Shown in pieces: positions 2,180 through 35,780 of a stretch of 64,000 bases of DNA. This DNA comes from a phage, in sequence record NC_100327.1; one strand, given 5' to 3'. A program made the position numbers and the translations under genes. Below the pieces are notes generated by a model that was not told where the DNA came from, did not search any database, and worked only from the letters and a program-made list of their open reading frames with translations. Positions within the stretch are counted from its first letter, which is position 1, and the number at the start of each line of letters is the position of its first letter.

Positions 2180-4516
2180 TTACCAAAGGTCGGTAGACAT
2201 GAAGTTGATATCTTTATTGTTCTCCCACTCAAGTTTTGCATCAAATATTTTGTTAAACTCACCCTCATCTATTGAAATCGTGATTTTCCCATCACTGATC
2301 TCTAAAGGTAGCATTTCCATAGTTCTTAATTGAGAAGCAAAACCAGGGCCACCCGGCAACGGAAGAGTCCCGCCCGGTAAGGTGTCCAAAGGATTAACAA
2401 ACCCGTTACCTCCCGATATGATATCTTTGCGAATCATATCGCTGATAGTATCCAGCTGCTGATTTCTTTCACTTAGTGGGTTGTAACGGTCATTAAATAA
2501 TTCCCCGGCGCTTAGTATTGTACCGATAATGCCCAGCTTACCGAGCAGACCAACTTTGCCACCAGGTGTCTTGAGGCCACCTCCACCTTTTCCTGCCGGA
2601 GCTCCACCACCAGATCCTTCTGTAGTAGCGGCACCCGCTGCTCCAGCTGCACCTCTTAGAGAGTTAAGGAATTTAAAGGTTTTTACAAGCATGGATGCCA
2701 TGACAAAACCTTTTGTTAGGGCGTTGACTACCAGCATGATGGCAGCAGCAAACCCTGCCCATTTAGCATAGCTAAAGGTGTCATGAAGCTCTTCAGAATA
2801 TTCCTTCGTCTTAGCTGTTATGAATCCCCATTTAATCCCCCATTCAAGGAAAAACATGCGGATCTTGACTATAGTGTTGTTTAGTTCACCAACTACCCAG
2901 TTAAGGCCTCTCACAAACCCGCTAACAAAATCACCAGAGGCATCCCACACAAATTGCAGAGTCTCACCCGTGCGGATCAGTGTATAATAGAACTCTGTTA
3001 GTTCGTCAGACCAACGGGTGAACAGTTTCTGACGAGTCAGTTCGATGAAGGTTTTCAGTCTGTTTTCTGCCAGCACGTTAGACTTCTGCATTCTTTCATA
3101 ACCAGCTGCAGATGCCTCGTTCATGTACTTAGCCACATACTTCATGATCTTGGCTGTTTTAACCTCACCTTTCTTCATCATGTCCATGAACTGATCCATG
3201 GAGAGTTCAGAAAGACCAAAAGCCTCTTTGGTGGCCTTGATAAAAGGTTCGTATGCACCAGGCAATGCTTCAGCAAGTTGTTGCTTCAGTTCTTCGGACA
3301 TTACTTGTCCTTTCCCAAGCATCTGTTGGATTGCCATAATACCGCGCTGGTATTTTACCTCATCGGCACCATAAGCAGCAGCATACTGTGAGTATGCAGA
3401 AAACAGCTCATGCACTTCCTGATTTGTCATCTGGTTTTTGGCGTTTACCGACATCTGGGCGTAACCTTGAAGACCAGATTTGAGATCAAAACCAAGACGC
3501 ATAGCCTCTTGCTGGACAAACGCAACCTCACTGTTGGCTTTGTTTGGATCTCCAGTAACAGCAGTAAGAGCAGCACTTGCCCCCTCCATCATGTGACCGG
3601 ATCTGTTAACCGCAGCAAATCCAGAAAAAGCTGTATACGCAGCTGTTGCATTAATAACAGATCTACGTAAGTCTCTCATGGCATCGCCTAGTGTAAGCGT
3701 TTGGCTGGTGGCGCTTTTAAACCCAGACTGCAGCGCTGACAGGTGGGCGTTAAAGGTTGACTTCTTCATCTCCCCGCGAGCAAACCTGGACTCTAACTCT
3801 GAGTATCCTGGCAAGCTTCCACGGAATCCGGCCCCATACTTGGCAGAAAGTCTTATCGCGGAGTTGTAGAGGTGGGTTCTCCTTGCCTCACGATCCGACA
3901 TAAGCCTATTATCCATACCAGCTTTACTGTCTCTTCTTAGCTGTCTATGATAACGATTCATAGCGGCTGTCTGAGCTTTCACAAGGTTAGGGTCGGAAGC
4001 TACACCACCCATATTAGGGTTACCGGGGATATATTTGAAAGCTTTGGCATTAGCCAGAACTCTTGCCTTAGGTGCCTTATAACCGCCGTAAGACACTGGT
4101 GCAGATTTGGCAGCCTTTTTGGCCTCTTTAGCTTGCTGCTGGTAGAACTTACGCATCCTAGCCATTTCTGGATTTTTAGCGGTAAGATTACCTACAGCTT
4201 GTTTACGTCTCGCATTCTCCCTACGTTCTATTGCAGCCCTTACTGCAGCCTCTTTCTTGGCCTGTGCTACGCTCTCTCTGTGCAGTTTAGCATTTGCCTG
4301 AGATTGCTGTCTGGCAACCCTCTGCATTGTCTGCTGGGTTTTAACAGCTACCGCCTGCCATCTACTCATGGGGTTGGCTGAGTTAAAATCCTCGCCCAGT
4401 TTCCTGAACTCCCTCCCAATACTGCGAATTTTCTCTACAGCTTTTTTGTAGGAGGAGTTCTCTATCTCAAAGCCAATCTTGTTGACTGTTGTGGCAACTA
4501 TTTTGTTTGTAGCCAT
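2180..4516 (-). CDS. tail tape measure protein
   Basis: 778 aa, ATG with GAGGA RBS; long alpha-helical Ala/Gln/Lys-rich N-terminus, Gly-rich segment, hydrophobic stretches; follows chaperone pair. Confidence 0.8.
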   Translation of the reverse strand: MATNKIVATTVNKIGFEIENSSYKKAVEKIRSIGREFRKLGEDFNSANPMSRWQAVAVKTQQTMQRVARQQSQANAKLHRESVAQAKKEAAVRAAIERRENARRKQAVGNLTAKNPEMARMRKFYQQQAKEAKKAAKSAPVSYGGYKAPKARVLANAKAFKYIPGNPNMGGVASDPNLVKAQTAAMNRYHRQLRRDSKAGMDNRLMSDREARRTHLYNSAIRLSAKYGAGFRGSLPGYSELESRFARGEMKKSTFNAHLSALQSGFKSATSQTLTLGDAMRDLRRSVINATAAYTAFSGFAAVNRSGHMMEGASAALTAVTGDPNKANSEVAFVQQEAMRLGFDLKSGLQGYAQMSVNAKNQMTNQEVHELFSAYSQYAAAYGADEVKYQRGIMAIQQMLGKGQVMSEELKQQLAEALPGAYEPFIKATKEAFGLSELSMDQFMDMMKKGEVKTAKIMKYVAKYMNEASAAGYERMQKSNVLAENRLKTFIELTRQKLFTRWSDELTEFYYTLIRTGETLQFVWDASGDFVSGFVRGLNWVVGELNNTIVKIRMFFLEWGIKWGFITAKTKEYSEELHDTFSYAKWAGFAAAIMLVVNALTKGFVMASMLVKTFKFLNSLRGAAGAAGAATTEGSGGGAPAGKGGGGLKTPGGKVGLLGKLGIIGTILSAGELFNDRYNPLSERNQQLDTISDMIRKDIISGGNGFVNPLDTLPGGTLPLPGGPGFASQLRTMEMLPLEISDGKITISIDEGEFNKIFDAKLEWENNKDINFMSTDLW

Positions 4517-15910: not shown

Positions 15911-16883
15911 TTATATTCAAAGGTGGTCGCAACACCACCCTCCGCACCATTACGTGCTGCTGCATGTTACCATGCAGAGTAGACTATATCACCACCCATC
16001 TCAGGGTGCTTCGCTTTTCGAGCGCCATAAGCTTGCGCCCTACTCCCTCTCGGGATAGTCGTTGAACTACATTACCAATCGTAATTGTTTGAAATATAGG
16101 TGTAAGTCTTACGGTCTTTTATTCCTTTAACAACACTAAAACTTACTCCCCACTTCTTAGCTATTTTATTTACACACAAAACCCTATCACTAAGATCCTC
16201 GCAGATACCTATTATCTTGTGCTCACTTATCCTATTAGAGGTTGGCACTTTTCTAAAGTTAAACTCTTTAGAAATATCTGGGTATACTGAGCCATTCTTT
16301 ATACCACTTACAAGTGGTTGATTGACACCAAACATTTCACAAATGTCTTTTACCCTTGCACCTTGCTCTAACAGCCTACATATTTCAAGAGCAGTGGCAT
16401 CATCTAGGGACCTGTATTTATTGACATAGTCCTTTTTAAGTCCCATTTCATGAGCGTGATGTGTGTTTTCCTCAGGCGTTGTCCACTCAAGGTTCCATGC
16501 GGCGTTATTCAACTTATTACCATCCAGGTGGTTTACTTGAGTTTTCACGCTGGGATTATCATTATCAACAAAAGTCATAGCGATAACTCTATGGACTAGC
16601 ACTTGGAACTTTTTCCCGCCCTCGCACAAAGTGACCATAGCATAGCCAGTCTTTTTCTGCACATTAGGATGGAGGAATTTATTAGAATACAGACTGTAAA
16701 TTCTGCCATCGTATGTAGCACAATAATGATTGTAGCCTAAAAAGCCTAAATTTCTCATTTCAAACATCTCCCTACTACAGGTTCGGAAGGGTAATTATAG
16801 CTGCTGATTGTCCGTTTAGCAATCGGATTTTCCAGCAATTAACGAAGTTATTCGACGTGCATTTCTGCACGAAGCCACTATCA
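15911..16883 (-). mobile_element. intron-like insertion with HNH homing endonuclease ORF (candidate group I intron)
   Basis: About 970 nt between terminase segments 2 and 3; GC-richer non-coding flanks around a free-standing HNH ORF; boundaries approximate. Confidence 0.5.
16072..16767 (-). CDS. HNH homing endonuclease
   Basis: 231 aa, ATG start; NHLDGNKLNN...HH HNH motif and C-terminal DNA-binding helix region. Confidence 0.75.
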   Translation of the reverse strand: MFEMRNLGFLGYNHYCATYDGRIYSLYSNKFLHPNVQKKTGYAMVTLCEGGKKFQVLVHRVIAMTFVDNDNPSVKTQVNHLDGNKLNNAAWNLEWTTPEENTHHAHEMGLKKDYVNKYRSLDDATALEICRLLEQGARVKDICEMFGVNQPLVSGIKNGSVYPDISKEFNFRKVPTSNRISEHKIIGICEDLSDRVLCVNKIAKKWGVSFSVVKGIKDRKTYTYISNNYDW

Positions 16884-17207
16884 TTTAATGGTTGCGCCTA
16901 TAAACGAGAATGACAACGGTCTTGGCTTGATCTCCACACCCAGTCCGTTAACCGTGGTGTATTTCTCTATCAACTCTTCTTTAGAGTCTCCCCAGATAAA
17001 TTCACCGTCGCGTCGGATAAAATATCTTTTCTTACCGCATTTCTCCGGATCTGGATACCCTTCATCGTCCAACCACCATCTAACCAGTTTGGCAAGCATG
17101 TGTTCTGAATCGGGGTTACAGCTGATAACCATTCTTGATGGATACTTTGACTGAGATCGCAGACGAGACATCAGGTAGTCTATCTGCTCCCATTCGAACT
17201 GTGTCGT
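16884..17207 (-). CDS. terL: terminase large subunit (coding segment 2 of 3)
   Basis: Frame open between stops at 17208-17210 and 16881-16883; track ORF 16881..17171; VISCNPD motif-III-like sequence; boundaries approximate. Confidence 0.6.
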
Positions 17208-18087
17208 TTATGTTCGGGCAAGGTCGCTAGTCTTGCCCCGCCATTTTCAGGCAGCTGCATGTCTCCATGCAGACCAGACTATATCTTATGAATGTGCAAA
17301 TACTCTGCCGCTCTAAGAATAGTTTCCTCATCCTCTTGGAAGAAACCTAAAGCTCTGTTGCATTTATCACAAAGCAACCCTCTTACAGCACCAGTTTTAT
17401 GGTCATGATCAACACAAAAGAAATCTCTGTACCCTTGCGTCCTATACTCATCAAGAGATATTCTACAAATGGCACACTTATGATCTTGATCTGAGAGTAG
17501 ACGATAGTATTCATCTTTTGTTATGTGAAATTTCTTCTCAATCTGATAAAACTTTTCACACATCTTACACCTGTTCGTAACCAGATATACTTTACCATAG
17601 TCACGTTTTGTGTAAAAACTATCAGCGAGCATACTTTCATGACAAGATTTGCATTCAAAAAGTTCACCTTTCTTCAGCAAGTCTTGAATAAATAATGCTG
17701 CGTCATCTCTCTTAACCATATTTTTGTTTCTACGAGATCCACCATTCCTGTAGTACATATAGCATTCCTTGCATGTACCTGAGTATCCATCCTTGCTCTT
17801 AGATGATAAAAAGAAATCATCAATAGGTAGAACTCTTTGGCAATCCATACATTTTTTAGTATTACACATTCACCCTCCCGTTTCGAATCGCTTGATTCTA
17901 CGTCTTTCGACTAGTCGTTGAACGTTCATCCTCTCGGATGCTTCGCTGCGGATTATCTAAATTAACACACTGTTACCATACCTTCGATCTCTCTTCGAAG
18001 CCTCTATCATGTTACCATGACAGGTTGGTGGTGTCAATAATAAAGATTTCCCCGCAATTAGGGAGGTTTTACGAGAGCTACAAATTA
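17208..18087 (-). mobile_element. intron-like insertion with Endonuclease-VII-type homing endonuclease ORF (candidate group I intron)
   Basis: About 880 nt between terminase segments 1 and 2; structured non-coding flanks; boundaries approximate. Confidence 0.5.
17279..17869 (-). CDS. Endonuclease VII-family (His-Me finger) homing endonuclease
   Basis: 196 aa, ATG start; multiple CxxC pairs and CVDHDHKTGAVRGLLCDKCN motif. Confidence 0.7.
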   Translation of the reverse strand: MCNTKKCMDCQRVLPIDDFFLSSKSKDGYSGTCKECYMYYRNGGSRRNKNMVKRDDAALFIQDLLKKGELFECKSCHESMLADSFYTKRDYGKVYLVTNRCKMCEKFYQIEKKFHITKDEYYRLLSDQDHKCAICRISLDEYRTQGYRDFFCVDHDHKTGAVRGLLCDKCNRALGFFQEDEETILRAAEYLHIHKI

Positions 18088-18513
18088 ACCCTCATCGAAG
18101 CAAACCATGGTGTACTCAAGCCCCTGATGGTTAAGCTTATCTTGTACATACTCCATATGGCAGTATTTTACAACAGCTCCCTTTTTGCTTCTATCCCACT
18201 TACCAGTGTTCGGATCAAACCGTGGAAAAATGAACTTATGATCCTTCTCTCTGAACTTTGGCTTAATGTTTTCAGGCAGATCACTATAAATAGCTACTGC
18301 TTTAGGCCATAGTCCACCCTCACCTTCCAACTGTGGGGTTGTTCTTCGGAACATAACCACAGAGCTGTGGGGGTCATCAATAATTTTAAGTGGCATCAAC
18401 TGCAAGAGGAACGACTTGCCAGACCCTGCGGCACCGCCGATTACCAAAATATCTGCATCGTTTTCTAGGATCATCTTCTGCTTTTCAGAACACGGTCCGT
18501 AAATCTTAGACAT
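18088..18513 (-). CDS. terL: terminase large subunit, ATPase N-terminus (coding segment 1 of 3)
   Basis: ATG with AAGGAGAGAGG RBS; Walker A GGAAGSGKS; Walker B MVCFDEG followed at once by an in-frame stop. Confidence 0.75.
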
Positions 18514-19703: not shown

Positions 19704-19779
19704 TTGGTGGCCCTGGGTGGAATTGAACCACCGTCTGGCGATTATGAGTCGCTTGCTTGAACCTTCCAGCTACAGGGCC
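19704..19779 (-). tRNA. tRNA with CAT anticodon (Met, or Ile if lysidine-modified)
   Basis: Acceptor GGCCCTG/CAGGGCC, anticodon loop CTCATAA, T-arm GGTGG-TTCAATT-CCACC, CCA encoded. Confidence 0.75.
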
Positions 19780-19860: not shown

Positions 19861-19959
19861 AGGTGCTAGGTGATGGAATCGAACCACCTATGTATTCAAC
19901 GACTACCTCGTCTATTTTCAGGATTAAAAATCCTCGCCCTTGCCAAAGGGCTTACCTAG
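19861..19959 (-). tRNA. aberrant tRNA-like element with Lys (TTT) anticodon loop and ~25-nt insertion
   Basis: About 99 nt: perfect acceptor GCTAGGT/ACCTAGC, D-arm GCCC-TTTGGCAA-GGGC, anticodon loop TTTTTAA, T-arm GGTGG-TTCGATT-CCATC; extra hairpin GACGA-ggtag-TCGTT between anticodon and T arms; 3' end ACC not CCA. Confidence 0.4.
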
Positions 19960-20057
19960 CTCAGTATGTTGACCATGTTGCTAGTCGGCGATGACGACTG
20001 TAACATTTGATAATCCGGTTCTGCTTCCGACTTTCGCTTAATTACAAGGTCAACAAT

Positions 20058-31668: not shown

Positions 31669-31977
31669 ATGCTTAAAATTTTTATTGTTGAAGATAAAGA
31701 TATTGTCCAGTTGTATGCAAACGAGAATCATAAAGGTATTATTCTGAAGAAGGAAAGCAACCTCTATGAAAACACAATTCAACCTGGTGATGTAATTAAG
31801 ATCTGTGGCTATCTGCTACCAGACTCATTGATGAAAATAACCCACCACTGGGGGTCTAATCCGTTCCTTTTTGAAAAGTATTGGGATGTTGAGTCACTTA
31901 TTGCAGAGAGTGATGATGCATTTCATTACAGCATCCAACCATCTTGCAGAATAACTAACAGGAGGGTCTTTGAGTAG
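31669..31977 (+). CDS. hypothetical protein
   Basis: 102 aa, ATG with AGGAG RBS, downstream of promoter. Confidence 0.55.
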   Translation: MLKIFIVEDKDIVQLYANENHKGIILKKESNLYENTIQPGDVIKICGYLLPDSLMKITHHWGSNPFLFEKYWDVESLIAESDDAFHYSIQPSCRITNRRVFE

Positions 31978-33109
31978 AGAATATCCACTTATTGAGTCCA
32001 TAGATTGTCTAGCTGATCTTCTTGAACCTGACGCTATAGTTTATTATGACTTCGATCAGGTTGCATATCAAGCTGCAGCAAGTTGTGAAAAAAGGACAAT
32101 TGAGGTAACACACAAAGCCTCCGGACGTAAGAAGATGTTTAAAACACGAACAGAGTTCTGGGGGCGGCAGAAGAACACCGTTGGTGGTTGGTTAAAAGCT
32201 GAGAATACCAACCGTGAAGCTGCATGTAAAAAGGCTGGCAAGGAGTTTATTCCGTGGACACGAGAAGATTTCGATGTCTTGGATATCCAAACCCCTGATC
32301 CTGTAGAGAACTGCTTGCACACAATTAAGTGTAAAGCTAATGCAGTCCTTAATTATCTCGGTATTCCGGAAGATCGGTGCGTGGGGGTACTTGGAGGCAC
32401 AGGTAATTTCAGACTAGATCTTCCCATGCCGGAAAGATATAAAGCCAACCGTAACAATACTCTTCGACCACTGCTGCTTGGAGATGCAAGACAGTATCTC
32501 CAAAAGCAGTATAATGCTCAAGTGATCAACGGTATCGAGGCTGACGACTGGTTAGCTATCCAGCAATTTGAAGGTTGGAACCACTACCAAAAAACAGGTA
32601 AGTTCAACAAGTTTATTATCTCTATTGATAAGGACCAAAGAACACTACCGGGGCTTGTGTTCGATCCCATGCGAAACGATAAGGGAGATTTTGTAAGGGA
32701 AACCCCTATGCTGATCGATAACGGTATGGGGAACATCTTCATGAAGCCTAATGGAGAGGTTGGCGGTTACGGGATGCTGTTCTTCGGATACCAAATGCTG
32801 TGTGGTGACTCTGCTGACAACATCAAGCCGTATCAAGGACTTATCGGTAAGGGTAAGTTCGGGGATGCCTCAGCATTCTACCTACTGTCTCAGTGCAGCA
32901 CTCCAAAGGAGATGTGGGTGGCTATTATTGATCAGTACAAGAAGTGGTTCCCGAAAGGTGTTGTTAAGTATACTGACTTCAATGGTATTGATCGTAGAAT
33001 TTCCGTAGGTCAATGGATGAGTATAATTTTTGACTGTTTGTATATGAAGCGGACATTTAATGACCAGACAAAACTTGTTAACGTTCTTAGAAATGTTGGA
33101 GCAATCTGA
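31970..33109 (+). CDS. 5'-3' exonuclease / flap endonuclease
   Basis: 379 aa; TTG start with AGGAGG RBS; H3TH-type motif CGDSADNIKPYQGLIGKGK. Confidence 0.65.
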   Translation: MSREYPLIESIDCLADLLEPDAIVYYDFDQVAYQAAASCEKRTIEVTHKASGRKKMFKTRTEFWGRQKNTVGGWLKAENTNREAACKKAGKEFIPWTREDFDVLDIQTPDPVENCLHTIKCKANAVLNYLGIPEDRCVGVLGGTGNFRLDLPMPERYKANRNNTLRPLLLGDARQYLQKQYNAQVINGIEADDWLAIQQFEGWNHYQKTGKFNKFIISIDKDQRTLPGLVFDPMRNDKGDFVRETPMLIDNGMGNIFMKPNGEVGGYGMLFFGYQMLCGDSADNIKPYQGLIGKGKFGDASAFYLLSQCSTPKEMWVAIIDQYKKWFPKGVVKYTDFNGIDRRISVGQWMSIIFDCLYMKRTFNDQTKLVNVLRNVGAI

Positions 33110-33441
33110 TGACTAAAAATGCTGTAGATAACGCAATTATGGAAGCTGTTTTTGAGGATGATCACACAACAGGGACACTTAAAACAAAAAATACATTCGT
33201 TGTTGCCACAGGTATGTGGCGGTTGTATGAAGATGACACCATTTCATACATCCTGTACACGGATGATTACGCAGATGACCGTGTATGGTCTGCTGTTTTA
33301 AAAGAGGATTGTGAGCTGATTGAGGGCGAGCGGTTATGCATGTTCACCAGTGTGGAAACAGATGTTAAGCTTTGCTCTCTCGTCTTGTTCAAAGATAAGG
33401 CTTATGCTCCTGATGAAGGAGAGGAGGACGAGGAAGCATGA
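33109..33441 (+). CDS. hypothetical acidic protein
   Basis: 110 aa, ATG overlapping upstream stop, Glu/Asp-rich C-terminus. Confidence 0.5.
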   Translation: MTKNAVDNAIMEAVFEDDHTTGTLKTKNTFVVATGMWRLYEDDTISYILYTDDYADDRVWSAVLKEDCELIEGERLCMFTSVETDVKLCSLVLFKDKAYAPDEGEEDEEA

Positions 33442-34067
33442 GAGAGCGTCTATTATCCATAGACCAGTCGTTGACACACACAGCTTGCGTTGTATGGGAC
33501 GATGGAAAGCCTGTTCATAAGGTTGTGTTACGAACTCAAAGCTCATCTGCAAAAGAGAAGAAACCAGGGACGGTTTCTTTTGCAACAGCTGCTGAGCGTA
33601 TTGACTGGATCTGCAAACAGGTCAGATATTACATCCACACGCACGGCGTTGACACCGTGGTTATGGAAGGGCTTTCCTTTGGATCACGCGGGGATGCCAC
33701 ACGCGAACTGGCTGGGTTGTTTTACGGTCTTGAAGTTATGCTTTGGGATGCTTTAGCTGATTGTGAAAATGACGGCCTGTTTAAGGTCCACACCGTGACA
33801 CCAACAACTGCCAAAAAGTTTGCTCGTAGTCATCTTCCTGAGGAACTTGCTTTTGAGGAGAAGAAAAAGCTTGACAAAAAGACAGGTAAAGAGCATACTG
33901 TGAAGAAACCTGTTACGATGGATAAAAAGTTGATGGTTAAGGCCTGCGAAGTATCTGAACCTGGGTTCCTAGATGGGATCAATTTGGTACAAGGTAAGGC
34001 CGATCTCGCAGATGCTTATTGGATAGGCAGGGCGCATCTGGAGGGGTTATCGCAAAGCGTAAAATAA
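33438..34067 (+). CDS. RuvC-like Holliday junction resolvase (RNase H fold)
   Basis: 209 aa; LSIDQSLTHTACVVWDDG N-terminus, VVMEGLSFG acidic motif, C-terminal Asp cluster. Confidence 0.5.
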   Translation: MRERLLSIDQSLTHTACVVWDDGKPVHKVVLRTQSSSAKEKKPGTVSFATAAERIDWICKQVRYYIHTHGVDTVVMEGLSFGSRGDATRELAGLFYGLEVMLWDALADCENDGLFKVHTVTPTTAKKFARSHLPEELAFEEKKKLDKKTGKEHTVKKPVTMDKKLMVKACEVSEPGFLDGINLVQGKADLADAYWIGRAHLEGLSQSVK

Positions 34068-34624
34068 GAAAGAAAGCTGTCAAAGCCCCCGTTCATAGCG
34101 GGTGGCTAAAAGATTCTAAGGACATAGCCAACTTTCGAAAAGAATTGTCAGAGGAGCAGGATGGTCTTGATCCGATCTTGTGCGAGCCACTTCGTAAGCC
34201 TTGTTTAGATCATGATCATCTGACTGGTCGTTGCAGGGGTGTTTTGTCTCAGTGCACTAATACCTTTGAGGGGTATGTGCTTAAATACTGGATGAAATAC
34301 TGTAACGAGTATACAGATTGCAGTTTATCAGAGGCGTTGCGCCGGATGGCTGACTATCTGGAGAAAGACTACAGCGACTTCCCGCTCCACAAAAACTACA
34401 GAGATGATATGACAAAGTTCTTGAGGAGATGCTCTAAAGCTACGATTATTGCACGAGCAGAATCAGATCTCAATCTTGTCATTAATCCAGAGTGCACCAA
34501 GCATGAGGCTATTGAGTCCTACATGCAGGAGTTTATAAAGAAAACTGAGGAGAGAGATTTCTATGGGGATGAAAAAGGTATTCAATCCTTGCGACTCAGT
34601 CCTGATCAGGATGAAATACCGTAA
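34019..34624 (+). CDS. Endonuclease VII-like junction-resolving enzyme
   Basis: Track ORF starts at TTG inside the RuvC-like gene; no in-frame ATG/GTG before the catalytic motif CLDHDHLTGRCRGVLSQC, so true start is uncertain. Confidence 0.55.
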   Translation: MDRQGASGGVIAKRKIRKKAVKAPVHSGWLKDSKDIANFRKELSEEQDGLDPILCEPLRKPCLDHDHLTGRCRGVLSQCTNTFEGYVLKYWMKYCNEYTDCSLSEALRRMADYLEKDYSDFPLHKNYRDDMTKFLRRCSKATIIARAESDLNLVINPECTKHEAIESYMQEFIKKTEERDFYGDEKGIQSLRLSPDQDEIP

Positions 34625-34784
34625 CTGGAAAGGTGTTGTTGCAGATCGCTGCGTTACTGAGCCTAATTTATGGTTTGGCTCTACAGAGTATCATAAAGAA
34701 GAGCAGTGGTTGATGCATGCCTTTGATGTAGACAAGGGCGAATATCGTGACTTCGCTTTAAAAGACATTCTTCAGTTTTACTAA
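34563..34784 (+). CDS. hypothetical protein
   Basis: 73 aa, ATG start, overlaps preceding gene. Confidence 0.4.
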   Translation: MGMKKVFNPCDSVLIRMKYRNWKGVVADRCVTEPNLWFGSTEYHKEEQWLMHAFDVDKGEYRDFALKDILQFY

Positions 34785-34796
34785 GGAATTTTGACG

Positions 34797-35780
34797 ATGA
34801 TGACAAAGTTAACTCTTGAGCAAATTTTAACACTAAAGCAGCAGGGATACACTAATAGACAAATTGCTCGTGAATTTTTAGGCCGTGAGTCACGTGAGAG
34901 TTGGATCCGACTACAGCTTAAACGTGCACAAGAGAATATGTCAGAGATTGTAGGAGAAGCAACGGAGCGCTTCCTTGAAGAACACAAAGGAGCTAAAGTT
35001 TGGGTGTATGATACAGAAACATCACCAACAAACGGCTGGTTCTTTGGGCACTATAAGACCAACATTCAAACCTGCGGTATTGAAATTATGCCCTATATGC
35101 TAACTTTCGCAGGTAAGTGGTTAGACAGTCCTAGTGTGGTTGACTGCGCTCTTCCCGATTACAAAATGTGGGATGAGGATATTCACAATGACCTCGAATT
35201 GATTCAGGACTTGTGGTATTATCTGGATAAATGTGATGTCGCAGTAGCCCACAATTCAGGTTTTGACTGTGGGTGGGCAAACCAACGATTTGCATTTCAC
35301 GGGTTGCCTCCAACAAGCCCATACAAAGAGGTTGACACCCTTAAAATGATCAAGAAGGCATTCCGTTTGAATGCAAACACTTTGGAGTATGCATGCAAAT
35401 ACTTCCAACTTGCCCGACAGAAACTGATTGACCACACATTTGAAATGTGGATCAAGTGTGTTCATGGTGATCTTGAGGCGTTTAAACAGATGCGGGAGTA
35501 CAATGTTGGTGATATCCTATCTCTGGAAGGCCTGTATTTGCTGGCACGCCCGTTTGCTAAGCAGCACCCCAACATGTCATTGTACTACCAGGATGAGGAG
35601 CCAAAAGTTCGTTGCCCACGCTGCGGTGGAGAACACCTTCACGAGGAAGAAGCTTTGGCGTATACTCAACTGAGTGCATTTAAAACATATCGCTGCGAAG
35701 GTTGTGGATCTGTTGTTCGTGACCGTAACAACATCCGTACCAGAGAAGAAATGAAAAACACCCTGATTCAGATAATCTAA
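34797..35780 (+). CDS. DEDD-family 3'-5' exonuclease with N-terminal HTH
   Basis: ORF track 34791..35780; ATG at codon 3 with AAGGAA RBS; Exo motifs VWVYDTETS, VAHNSGFDCG, YNVGDILSLEGLY; C-terminal CxxC...CxxC. Confidence 0.65.
   Translation: MMTKLTLEQILTLKQQGYTNRQIAREFLGRESRESWIRLQLKRAQENMSEIVGEATERFLEEHKGAKVWVYDTETSPTNGWFFGHYKTNIQTCGIEIMPYMLTFAGKWLDSPSVVDCALPDYKMWDEDIHNDLELIQDLWYYLDKCDVAVAHNSGFDCGWANQRFAFHGLPPTSPYKEVDTLKMIKKAFRLNANTLEYACKYFQLARQKLIDHTFEMWIKCVHGDLEAFKQMREYNVGDILSLEGLYLLARPFAKQHPNMSLYYQDEEPKVRCPRCGGEHLHEEEALAYTQLSAFKTYRCEGCGSVVRDRNNIRTREEMKNTLIQII

What the first reader, a model, noticed from the sequence alone, without database searches (positions are those of the whole stretch)
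33438..34624. Two structure-specific nucleases side by side with an unresolved start for the second
A RuvC-like resolvase (33438..34067) is followed by an Endonuclease VII-like protein whose only upstream in-frame start candidates are TTG codons, the first lying 49 nt inside the RuvC-like gene. No slippery heptamer is visible at the junction. A phage carrying both resolvase types adjacent, plus a third Endo VII-type domain in a terminase intron, is unusual.
Basis: partly seen in the sequence, partly recalled or inferred. Interest (0 to 1): 0.4.

Follow-up and report, generated by a model that had tools for sequence, protein, structure and literature searches.

The report
Phage nuclease gene starting at AUC
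In this rV5-like coliphage the Endonuclease VII gene that follows a RuvC-like resolvase gene has no usable ATG/GTG/TTG start; comparison with relatives indicates that it starts at a conserved weak AUC codon behind a strong ribosome-binding site, which is a rare natural case and probably keeps a dangerous DNA-cutting enzyme scarce.

Summary
The window is an rV5-like Vequintavirus, 100% identical to phage inoa over the 2 kb tested. ORF 33438..34067 has a RuvC fold with its acidic residues intact. The next ORF is a full-length homologue of T4 Endonuclease VII. Its only canonical in-frame starts are TTG 34019, 49 nt inside the RuvC-like gene, and TTG 34145, inside the first conserved helix.

Across 35 distinct junctions from relatives, 24 carry GGAGG (GGGGG in two), then 4-6 nt, then an in-frame ATC or ATA. 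In the window these are GGAGG 34040-44 and ATC 34049. Nine junctions carry ATG, GTG or TTG at the homologous codon, giving M-A-K/R aligned with I-A-K/R. In a 93%-identical relative a stop codon lies between the TTG and the GGAGG. In another relative a stop lies between the GGAGG and the ATC. The basic N-terminal tail evolves as coding sequence. No RuvC–EndoVII fusion protein, conserved slippery site or conserved RNA structure was found.

Best reading: near-cognate AUC initiation at 34049, giving a 191-aa product, probably coupled to termination of the RuvC-like gene. This is inferred from comparison and has not been tested experimentally. GenBank records give at least five different starts for this gene. 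The third "Endo VII" domain, in the terminase intron, belongs to a known family of homing endonucleases. Interest is moderate.

The parts
33438..34067 (+). RuvC-like Holliday-junction resolvase gene (209 aa). Its ATG overlaps the stop of the preceding gene (ATGA), and its stop TAA is at 34065-34067.
   Evidence: PHROG 159 at E=3.3e-39. AlphaFold pLDDT 92.8. The top 13 Foldseek PDB hits are RuvC. D9, E77, D189 and D192 are conserved in 31 homologues, and distant homologues carry Pfam PF02075.
34040..34044 (+). Shine-Dalgarno sequence GGAGG for the EndoVII-like gene, lying inside the 3' end of the RuvC-like gene.
   Evidence: GGAGG (GGGGG in two) is present in the 24 AUH junctions while the flanking spacer varies freely. 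It tracks the EndoVII start, not the RuvC alignment. GGAGG plus 4 nt is the modal spacing for canonical starts in this window, 9 of 20.
34049..34051 (+). Proposed initiation codon ATC (AUC), a near-cognate codon that would be decoded as fMet.
   Evidence: An in-frame ATC or ATA sits 4-6 nt after the SD in 24 distinct junctions. ATG, GTG or TTG sits at the homologous codon in 9 others. N-termini align as M/I-A-K/R. L009 and L025 carry in-frame stops that exclude any start further upstream.
34049..34624 (+). EndoVII-like nuclease CDS as re-called here: 191 aa, stop TAA at 34622-34624.
   Evidence: Pfam PF02945. Profile match to T4 Endo VII at E=1.6e-12. Fold match to 1e7l, 1en7 and 2qnf only. 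D54, H55, H57, R63 and N71 are invariant.
34049..34105 (+). Basic, flexible N-terminal tail (I/M-AKRKIRKKAVKAPVHSGW) that is absent from T4 Endo VII. Its first 19 nt overlap the RuvC-like gene.
   Evidence: No secondary structure is predicted before residue 23, and pLDDT is 70-81. In relatives the equivalent stretch shows 11 purely synonymous codon columns in this frame against 1 and 0 in the other two frames. Window versus L009 differences after the ATC are all synonymous in this frame.
34208..34219 (+). Catalytic D-H-D-H motif of the EndoVII-like protein (residues 54-57).
   Evidence: Read directly from the sequence. Invariant in alignments A2 and A6. Aligned with T4 D40-H43.
34019..34021 (+). 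TTG used as the start in most GenBank records; rejected here as the main start.
   Evidence: No SD precedes it. It is a by-product of the Tyr-Trp codons of the RuvC frame. A TAG follows it in frame in L009. Seunavirus and Mydovirus relatives have TTT or CCT at this position.
34145..34147 (+). Next canonical in-frame codon, TTG; rejected as the start.
   Evidence: It falls at residue 33, inside the high-confidence helix 23-36. It lies downstream of the invariant R30 and of the conserved Trp.
34563..34784 (+). Downstream gene (73 aa, PHROG 3715, function unknown) that overlaps the last 62 nt of the EndoVII-like CDS.
   Evidence: The overlapped EndoVII residues 172-191 have pLDDT below 50.

Best explanation
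The EndoVII-like gene is a separate cistron whose translation starts at the near-cognate codon AUC at 34049, 4 nt downstream of a strong Shine-Dalgarno GGAGG (34040-44). Both elements lie inside the last 28 nt of the RuvC-like gene. Initiator tRNA would pair with AUC through a third-position mismatch, so the product would be a 191-aa protein beginning (f)Met-Ala-Lys-Arg-Lys. It consists of a flexible basic tail followed by a complete T4-Endo-VII-type fold with all catalytic residues. A weak start codon behind a strong SD should give a low rate of synthesis. The RuvC stop lies only 16 nt downstream of the AUC. Ribosomes finishing the RuvC-like gene therefore probably supply much of the initiation, by termination-reinitiation coupling, which would tie a small amount of the junction-cutting nuclease to the output of its neighbour. 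What is shown: the anatomy, the homologies, the conservation of SD, spacing and AUH codon, the coding signature of the tail, and the exclusion of upstream starts in relatives. What is inferred: that AUC is actually used, that coupling contributes, and that low expression is the selected trait.
For: (a) No canonical start is available. In the window only TTG 34019 and TTG 34145 exist. In KB57 no ATG, GTG or TTG lies upstream of the conserved Trp. (b) The stretch that would otherwise be untranslated is coding. The basic tail downstream of the RuvC stop has 13 of 23 variable sites at codon position 3. It has 11 purely synonymous codon columns, against 1 and 0 in the other frames, and no stops. 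(c) The motif is conserved. Among 35 distinct junctions, 20 have SD + 4-6 nt + ATC and 4 have SD + 4 nt + ATA, while the spacers all differ (ggtt, gttt, gtat, gagt, ggct, gatt, ggat, acct, atat, tttc, tata, cttt, aaaa, ttgt, gaat, caaa and others). (d) The position is homologous to canonical starts. The phiTE/CR8 group has GGAGG + 6 nt + GTG. L027, L022/L089 and L098 have ATG, and L046 has TTG, at the aligned codon. The N-termini MAKRN, MARTSK and MAVRP align with the window's IAKRK. (e) Upstream starts are excluded in relatives. L009 (93% identical) has a TAG between the TTG and the GGAGG that is synonymous in RuvC. L025 has a TAA between the GGAGG and the ATC, and in L097 the open frame begins 3 nt before the GGAGG. 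(f) The selective constraint switches reading frame at the SD/ATC. Window versus L009 differences are almost all synonymous for RuvC before it and all synonymous for EndoVII after it. (g) In L091 and L092 the GGAGG sits in a different codon phase relative to the ATC (5-nt spacer). It therefore behaves as a signal, not as Gly-Gly codons. (h) GGAGG + 4 nt is this phage's own modal SD spacing. (i) AUC, AUA and AUU initiate at roughly 1-2% (0.02-3%) of the AUG level in E. coli, and AUC-initiated protein carries N-terminal Met (10.1101/063800). (j) Coupling geometry: in all 24 AUH junctions the upstream ORF stops between -5 and +16 nt of the start, including AUAA, AUAG and UAAUC overlaps. Canonical starts occur where that stop is at +19 or further, or absent. 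(k) When the start is ATG in the same RuvC-adjacent context (L098), the SD is degenerate (AAGGT).
Against: There is no direct evidence of the N-terminus: no proteomics, toeprint or ribosome profiling. The rV5 paper contains no occurrence of the terms 'start codon' or 'initiation codon', and its only mention of an endonuclease is the homing endonuclease in the terminase intron. The junctions share ancestry, so the counts are not independent events. A 4-nt SD spacing is short by E. coli standards, although it is typical for this phage. In some lineages a canonical codon lies just upstream of the GGAGG (GTG in L010-13, ATG in L099) and could serve there. In the window a minor product initiated at TTG 34019 cannot be excluded. 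Part of the GGAGG and ATC conservation in Vequintavirus, Seunavirus and Mydovirus could reflect the overlapping RuvC codons (Glu-Gly, x-Ser), although the motif persists where RuvC ends before it.
Confidence: 0.75

Rival explanations
1. Initiation at TTG 34019, as annotated in most GenBank records (inoa, CarlMeissner and others), giving a 201-aa protein whose first 10 codons overlap the RuvC-like gene.
For: It is the first canonical in-frame codon of the open frame. Gene callers choose it. The L010-13 relatives have GTG at the same position.
Against: No SD precedes it. It arises from the RuvC Tyr-Trp codons, and the GTG in L010 likewise from Leu-Trp. L009 has an in-frame TAG 4 codons after it. 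Seunavirus, Mydovirus and other lineages have TTT or CCT there. Substitutions between it and the GGAGG are non-synonymous in this frame and almost all synonymous for RuvC.
Confidence: 0.08
2. A programmed -1 ribosomal frameshift at the end of the RuvC-like gene, for example P-site slippage on A_AAA before the UAA at 34061-67, stimulated by the upstream GGAGG. It would produce a RuvC-EndoVII fusion of about 390 aa.
For: The EndoVII frame is -1 relative to RuvC in all adjacent cases. The run A AAA UAA is in the right register. SD-like sequences are known to stimulate -1 shifts near stop codons (dnaX and B. subtilis cdd, from my own knowledge).
Against: There is no X_XXY_YYZ heptamer. The A-run is not conserved: it is absent in L010, L016, L024 and L025. 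L025 leaves only one codon between the EndoVII-frame stop and the RuvC stop. No stable or conserved RNA structure was found (z = -0.62, 0 consensus pairs). No fused protein occurs among 33 RuvC-like and 49 EndoVII-like homologues (lengths 157-230 and 129-201 aa). The same N-terminus carries ATG or GTG where the upstream gene differs or is absent. The GGAGG lies 16-17 nt from the A-run, further than known stimulators.
Confidence: 0.04
3. Initiation at another near-cognate codon: ATA 34064, which overlaps the RuvC stop as AUAA, or, in rV5 itself, the ATT one codon upstream that RefSeq annotates.
For: AUAA and AUAG overlaps are the actual arrangement in pEp_SNUABM_01, KP13-16, L032 and L033. RefSeq rV5 uses ATT.
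Against: The codon at 34064 is GTA in most relatives, and it lies 19 nt from the SD. The rV5 ATT is GTT in this window and sits only 1 nt from the GGAGG.
Confidence: 0.06
4. Initiation at the downstream TTG 34145 (or 34178), giving a truncated protein of about 159 aa; the upstream open frame would then be meaningless.
For: These are canonical codons. Several GenBank records truncate the orthologue in a similar way (KB57, pEp_SNUABM_01).
Against: It would remove the conserved Trp, the invariant Arg30 and half of the confidently predicted helix 23-36 that corresponds to the N-terminal part of T4 Endo VII. The upstream stretch shows a clear coding signature. No SD precedes it.
Confidence: 0.03

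Closest known systems
E. coli infC (IF3) and pcnB, the confirmed genes with a near-cognate AUU start
   Same: The start codon differs from AUG at the third base and is used to hold expression low. Hecht et al. list these two as the only confirmed non-canonical starts in E. coli and measure AUA, AUC and AUU at about 1-2% of AUG (10.1101/063800).
   Different: Here the codon is AUC or AUA rather than AUU. The gene is a phage nuclease, the SD is a perfect GGAGG, and the start lies within 16 nt of the upstream gene's stop. No IF3 autoregulatory logic is implied. Use of the codon has not been shown experimentally.
T4 gene 49 (recombination Endonuclease VII)
   Same: It is homologous over the whole T4 protein (E=1.6e-12; TM 0.71-0.74), with D40, H41, H43, R54 and N62 equivalents conserved (residue roles from PMC6083498). 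T4 gene 49 is also subject to special translational control that yields nested products (Barth et al. 1988, Genetics 120:329, cited; the details are from my own knowledge).
   Different: This protein has an extra basic N-terminal tail of about 20 residues. The zinc-binding CX2-4C...CX2C cysteines that are essential in T4 are not conserved in this subfamily. The start is AUC. The gene sits directly behind a RuvC-like gene, which is not the T4 arrangement as far as I know.
Translationally coupled overlapping genes (AUGA / UAAUG junctions)
   Same: The upstream stop codon lies within -5 to +16 nt of the start, the SD is embedded in the upstream coding sequence, and the gene belongs to a chain of overlapping genes from 31970 to 34784. 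Relatives have AUAA, AUAG and UAAUC, the exact analogues of AUGA and UAAUG.
   Different: The restart codon is near-cognate. Coupling itself has not been demonstrated here.
Bacterial RuvC and the lactococcal phage bIL67 RuvC
   Same: The upstream protein has the same fold and acidic active-site positions.
   Different: It is about 50 residues longer because of an inserted beta-hairpin and loop (residues about 131-160). It has no Pfam PF02075 hit of its own and only 13-17% identity to solved RuvCs.
DHHRN / F-CphI homing endonucleases
   Same: The terminase-intron ORF 17279..17869 (-) carries the Endo VII motif at its C-terminus, as this family does. The paper lists intron-encoded members in Escherichia phages JH2, EC6 and 2 JES-2013 and Salmonella phage FSL SP-010 (PMC6083498).
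   Different: It is unrelated in role to the 34049..34624 gene, which has the motif near its N-terminus and aligns over its whole length with T4 Endo VII, as the paper's 'resolvase clade' does.

Membership tests
RuvC-type Holliday-junction resolvase (RNase H-like fold) | RuvC fold | tested here: met
   AlphaFold model with pLDDT 92.8. Foldseek PDB ranks 1-13 are all RuvC (4ld0, 4ep4, 7xhj, 6lw3, 4ktw, 1hjr), with probability 1.0 and TM(target) 0.70-0.76.
RuvC-type Holliday-junction resolvase (RNase H-like fold) | Conserved acidic catalytic residues (equivalents of E. coli D7, E66, D138, D141) | tested here: met
   D9, D189 and D192 are at least 90% conserved and E77 is invariant in 31 homologues. 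Their equivalence to the E. coli residues is inferred from motif position and was not checked by superposition.
RuvC-type Holliday-junction resolvase (RNase H-like fold) | Sequence-level membership of Pfam RuvC (PF02075) | tested here: not met
   The window protein has no Pfam hit and no PDB sequence hit. Only distant homologues P0030 and P0032 carry PF02075. PHROG 159 matches at E=3.3e-39.
RuvC-type Holliday-junction resolvase (RNase H-like fold) | Junction-specific cleavage activity | not testable with these tools
   Needs biochemistry.
T4 Endonuclease VII family (Pfam PF02945, resolvase clade) | Endonuclease_7 domain above the curated threshold, with alignment over the whole length of T4 Endo VII | tested here: met
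   31.7-31.9 bits against a cut-off of 23.6. The profile matches 1e7d residues 13-148 at E=1.6e-12. The fold aligns over 157 columns.
T4 Endonuclease VII family (Pfam PF02945, resolvase clade) | Catalytic D40, H41, H43, R54, N62 (DHHRN) | tested here: met
   D54, H55, H57, R63 and N71 are invariant in 32 sequences. Their roles are taken from PMC6083498.
T4 Endonuclease VII family (Pfam PF02945, resolvase clade) | Zinc site CX2-4C ... CX2C | tested here: not met
   The cysteines are not conserved at these positions. PVP-SE1 has 3, phiTE 2 and KP13-16 none, and the window's four Cys have different spacing. This marks a zinc-less, or differently stabilised, subfamily.
Genes with a near-cognate (AUH) initiation codon | No canonical start compatible with the conserved coding region | tested here: met
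Genes with a near-cognate (AUH) initiation codon | AUH codon at proper SD spacing, conserved, and interchangeable with AUG or GUG in orthologues | tested here: met
   24 AUH junctions against 9 canonical junctions at the homologous codon. The spacing matches the phage's modal value.
Genes with a near-cognate (AUH) initiation codon | Experimentally determined N-terminus or initiation site | not testable with these tools
   No proteomic or ribosome-profiling data were found.
Programmed -1 ribosomal frameshift | Conserved slippery site | tested here: not met
   No heptamer is present, and the A-run is not conserved.
Programmed -1 ribosomal frameshift | Downstream stimulatory structure, or covariation supporting one | tested here: not met
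   z = -0.62. RNAalifold finds 0 consensus pairs.
Programmed -1 ribosomal frameshift | Fused single-ORF homologues, or an open overlap window in all relatives | tested here: not met
   No fusion protein was found. L025 leaves a 1-codon window.
Translational coupling by termination-reinitiation | Upstream stop close to or overlapping the restart codon | tested here: met
   The stop lies at -5 to +16 nt in all 24 AUH junctions.
Translational coupling by termination-reinitiation | Dependence of downstream translation on upstream translation | not testable with these tools
   Needs reporter experiments.

The most novel reading that the evidence does not exclude
The EndoVII-like nuclease of Vequintavirinae and phi92-like phages may be made only by ribosomes that have just terminated on the upstream gene and restart at an AUC or AUA codon. 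This would be obligate coupling at a near-cognate codon, maintained across lineages whose EndoVII proteins are now only about 40% identical. It would fix a very low EndoVII : RuvC-like ratio, with the start codon reverting to AUG or GUG whenever the coupling geometry is lost. If true, it would be a natural and evolutionarily tunable example of restart-specific relaxation of start-codon choice. It would also hint that the two junction nucleases work as a dosed pair.
Probability: 0.35. Interest if true: 0.6.

Novelty: new member of a known kind. Interest (0 to 1): 0.45.

Why it matters
According to Hecht et al., only two E. coli genes (infC and pcnB, both AUU) have confirmed non-canonical starts. 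A deeply conserved AUC/AUA start in a coliphage that grows on K-12 would give an easily tested natural model. It could show how a strong SD, short spacing and a nearby upstream stop allow a near-cognate codon to work, and why selection keeps it weak for a toxic junction-cutting nuclease.

There is also a practical consequence. More than 100 deposited Vequintavirinae genomes carry this gene, and the records examined use at least five different starts: TTG, ATT, ATC, truncated GTG and extended TTG. Gene callers truncate or extend it at will, so homologues in the protein database range from 129 to 201 aa. A single evidence-based start would correct them.

The finding also shows that RuvC-like plus a zinc-less Endo VII is the standard nuclease pair of this phage group, which raises the question of how the two divide their work.

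Tried and rejected
(1) Frameshift fusion was rejected. I looked for slippery sites and for RNA structure. I also looked for fused homologues with two large protein searches. All were negative.

(2) A phage-encoded special initiator tRNA was rejected. The window's tRNA(CAU) at 19705..19779 (-) has a paired G1-C72. It lacks the three G-C pairs of initiator anticodon stems, and its anticodon arm resembles tRNA-Ile2 as I remember that sequence. It is therefore not an initiator.

(3) Other near-cognate starts in the window were sought. Seven further GGAGG + ATC/ATA/ATT candidates were checked, and all were explained by canonical starts.

(4) Sequence searches of the RuvC-like protein against Pfam and PDB found nothing. 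Only PHROGs and the fold comparison identified it.

(5) The literature was searched for an earlier description of this start codon: the rV5 genome paper, the Certrevirus CB7 paper, the phage annotation guide, and searches on PVP-SE1 and on ATC/ATA/AUC/AUA start codons in bacteriophage. None discussed it. The held library is incomplete, and the PVP-SE1 genome paper was not among the listed hits, so I did not read it.

(6) Mapping window coordinates onto phage inoa failed upstream of about 33 kb. The window is not collinear with inoa in the terminase region.
Full report
**Identity of the window.** The region 33000-35000 is 100% identical to Escherichia phage inoa and 98-99% identical to rV5 and about 100 other Vequintavirus genomes. 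The gene order around the finding is conserved in Seunavirus (PVP-SE1), Mydovirus (KB57), Henunavirus (pEp_SNUABM_01), Certrevirus (phiTE) and a Stephanstirmvirinae phage (KP13-16). The order is:
- a FEN-like 5' exonuclease, 31970..33109;
- a small ORF, 33109..33441;
- the RuvC-like gene, 33438..34067;
- the EndoVII-like gene;
- a 73-aa ORF, 34563..34784;
- a DnaQ-like exonuclease.

- The first protein has no Pfam or PDB sequence match. It does match PHROG 159 'RuvC-like Holliday junction resolvase' at E=3.3e-39.
- With an alignment of 31 homologues, AlphaFold gives a confident model with pLDDT 92.8. Its 13 best PDB matches are all RuvC, including phage bIL67 RuvC and E. coli RuvC. D9, E77, D189 and D192 are conserved.
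- The second protein has Pfam Endonuclease_7 above threshold. A family profile aligns with T4 Endo VII residues 13-148 at E=1.6e-12. The model (pLDDT 87.4) matches only T4 Endo VII structures, over their full length.
- The residues that the literature defines as catalytic (D40, H41, H43, R54, N62; PMC6083498) are invariant here as D54, H55, H57, R63 and N71.
- Both enzymes therefore look active. That is an inference from sequence and fold, not a measurement.

**The start-codon problem is real.** The open frame runs from 33998 to 34624. The in-frame canonical codons are TTG 34019, TTG 34145 and TTG 34178. There is no ATG or GTG before the catalytic motif.
- TTG 34019 has no Shine-Dalgarno sequence.
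- TTG 34145 is residue 33, counted from 34049. It falls in the middle of a confidently predicted helix (residues 23-36) and after the conserved Trp19 and Arg30.
- Database annotators have solved the problem in at least five ways: TTG 34019 (inoa, CarlMeissner), ATT one codon before the ATC (rV5 RefSeq), ATC (PVP-SE1 RefSeq), a truncating GTG (KB57, pEp_SNUABM_01) and an extended TTG (KP13-16).
- Gene callers give homologues of 129 to 201 aa.

**Comparative evidence.** I collected the junction from GenBank phages (L002-L008), 80 IMG/VR loci and eight further assemblies. That gave 35 distinct junction sequences of the long-form family.
- In 24 junctions an in-frame ATC (20) or ATA (4) follows GGAGG (GGGGG in two) by 4 nt, or by 5-6 nt in three lineages. 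The SD and the AT[C/A] stay fixed while the spacer is free to vary. In the window these elements are GGAGG 34040-44 and ATC 34049.
- Nine junctions have a canonical codon at the homologous position. These are GTG in the phiTE/CR8 group, ATG in L027, L022/L089 and L098, and TTG in L046. The encoded N-termini align: MAKRN, MARTSK and M/V-A-I/V-R against IAKRK, IARK, IAGRRK and IRRKR.
- Upstream alternatives are excluded in relatives. In L009 (EndoVII 93% identical) a change that is synonymous in RuvC creates a TAG between the TTG and the GGAGG. In L025 a TAA lies between the GGAGG and the ATC. In L097 the frame opens 3 nt before the GGAGG.
- The stretch after the ATC is translated. In six Seunavirus/Mydovirus-like sequences, the 66 nt between the RuvC stop and the conserved Trp have 13 of 23 variable sites at codon position 3. 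They show 11 purely synonymous codon columns, against 1 and 0 in the other frames, and no stop. KB57 has no canonical start upstream of that stretch.
- Between the window and L009, substitutions before the GGAGG are almost all silent for RuvC and non-synonymous in the EndoVII frame. After the ATC they are silent in the EndoVII frame.
- The GGAGG follows the EndoVII start rather than the RuvC alignment, being shifted in pEp_SNUABM_01 and KP13-16. In L091 and L092 it lies in another codon phase. It therefore behaves as a signal, not as codons.
- Within this window, GGAGG + 4 nt is the commonest arrangement for ordinary ATG/GTG/TTG genes, 9 of 20. No other long ORF needs a near-cognate start.

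**Mechanism.** AUC, AUA and AUU are the near-cognate class that E. coli ribosomes use at about 1-2% (0.02-3%) of the AUG level, and AUC-initiated protein carries Met at its N-terminus. Only infC and pcnB are confirmed natural cases in E. coli (10.1101/063800). I conclude that the gene starts at AUC 34049.
- The geometry suggests coupling. In all 24 AUH junctions the upstream ORF ends between -5 and +16 nt of the start (+16 in the window).
- Several relatives have AUAA, AUAG or UAAUC, the near-cognate counterparts of the classical AUGA and UAAUG overlaps.
- Canonical starts are found where the upstream stop is at +19 or further, or where there is no overlapping gene.
- L092 keeps the ATC although its upstream neighbour is not the RuvC-like gene. 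Its stop is nonetheless at +14.
- L098 has ATG with a degenerate SD.
- These patterns fit selection for a low initiation rate fed largely by terminating ribosomes. They are correlations among related sequences, so the coupling step is less certain than the start site.
- Because one transversion would turn ATC or ATA into ATG, its persistent absence in lineages whose EndoVII proteins are now only 38-60% identical argues that the weak codon is maintained. The plausible reason is the toxicity of a branch-cutting nuclease, which is an inference.

**Rivals.**
- A -1 frameshift fusion is unlikely. There is no heptamer. The A-run before the stop is not conserved. There is no structure. No fusion protein exists among 82 homologues. 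L025 leaves only a 1-codon window. The same N-terminus has its own ATG or GTG where the neighbour differs.
- TTG 34019, ATA 34064, the rV5 ATT and TTG 34145 are each contradicted by conservation or structure, as set out above.
- A phage-encoded initiator tRNA for AUH is not present.

**The 'third Endo VII'.** The terminase large-subunit gene is split here, as published for rV5 (PMC3606486). One insertion carries ORF 17279..17869 (-), with a C-terminal Endonuclease_7 domain at E=2.1e-21. Another carries an HNH_3/HTH ORF at 16072..16767 (-). The first belongs to the DHHRN/F-CphI family of homing endonucleases, which was described with intron-encoded members in Escherichia phages JH2, EC6 and 2 JES-2013 and Salmonella phage FSL SP-010 (PMC6083498). 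It is a mobile-element nuclease, not a third resolvase.

**Novelty and verdict.** The genes, their adjacency and the intron endonuclease are already in the databases and the literature. What I did not find in any of the papers I could search or read is two things. First, the start of the EndoVII-like gene is a conserved AUC/AUA behind a strong SD next to the upstream stop. Second, it alternates with AUG or GUG at the same codon in lineages with a different geometry. Two RefSeq curators implicitly chose ATT or ATC. I file it as a new member of a known kind, namely near-cognate initiation with translational coupling. My confidence is about 0.75 in the start site and lower in the coupling. Interest is moderate at 0.45: it is directly testable in a K-12 phage, useful for annotation, and informative on start-codon selection, but not a new principle.

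Noticed in passing
window 34178-34270 (EndoVII-like residues about 44-74); L004-L008: The zinc-binding cysteines that are essential in T4 Endo VII (CX2-4C ... CX2C; the C23S and C61S mutants are inactive, per PMC6083498) are not conserved in this subfamily. KP13-16 has none at these positions, phiTE has two, and the window's four Cys have a different spacing. The catalytic DHHRN residues are all kept. This may be a zinc-less Endo VII lineage.
   Followed up: partly
window 34563-34624: The last 20 residues of the EndoVII-like protein (172-191) are predicted to be disordered (pLDDT below 50) and are not conserved. They correspond exactly to the 62 nt that overlap the next gene (34563..34784, PHROG 3715, with weak WYL-like hits).
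   Followed up: partly
window 16072-18513 (- strand): The terminase large-subunit gene is in pieces (Terminase_6N fragments at 16881..17171 and 18085..18513), with two inserted endonuclease ORFs. One is a DHHRN/Endo VII-motif ORF at 17279..17869 and the other an HNH_3+HTH ORF at 16072..16767. The window is not collinear with phage inoa in this region, so the intron or homing-endonuclease content varies among near-identical phages.
   Followed up: partly
window 19705-19779 (- strand): The tRNA called tRNA-Met (CAU) has a paired G1-C72, C4-G69 and C5-G68 pairs, and an anticodon arm nearly identical to E. coli tRNA-Ile2 as I remember that sequence. It is probably an AUA-reading tRNA-Ile after lysidine modification, not a Met or initiator tRNA.
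   Followed up: partly
window 19862-19960 (- strand): ARAGORN reports a 99-nt 'tRNA-???' with a four-base anticodon call (atcc). Rfam's tRNA model scores it 35.5 bits, just above threshold. GenBank labels the equivalent in inoa 'tRNA-OTHER'. It could be an intron-containing, long-arm or degenerate tRNA.
   Followed up: no
L006 (phiTE) 903-1454; L092 903-1475: In Certrevirus-like phages an extra gene of unknown function lies between the RuvC-like and EndoVII-like genes (PHROG 12410 in phiTE; the L092 ORF was not identified). In phiTE the EndoVII start is then GTG, while L092 keeps the ATC and the inserted gene's stop lies 14 nt downstream of it.
   Followed up: partly
window 31970-34784: Five consecutive genes overlap or abut one another, including the ATGA overlap at 33438-33441, the 19-nt overlap at 34049-34067 and the 62-nt overlap at 34563-34624. 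The whole nuclease cluster may therefore be translated as one coupled chain.
   Followed up: no
L099 1201-1215; L010-L013 about 3028-3042: In some relatives an ATG or GTG lies immediately 5' of the GGAGG (ATG-GGA-GGG-GAA-ATC; GTG-GGA-GGG-TAT-ATC). It is created by a Trp codon in the RuvC frame. Gene callers pick it, and whether it is ever used is open.
   Followed up: partly
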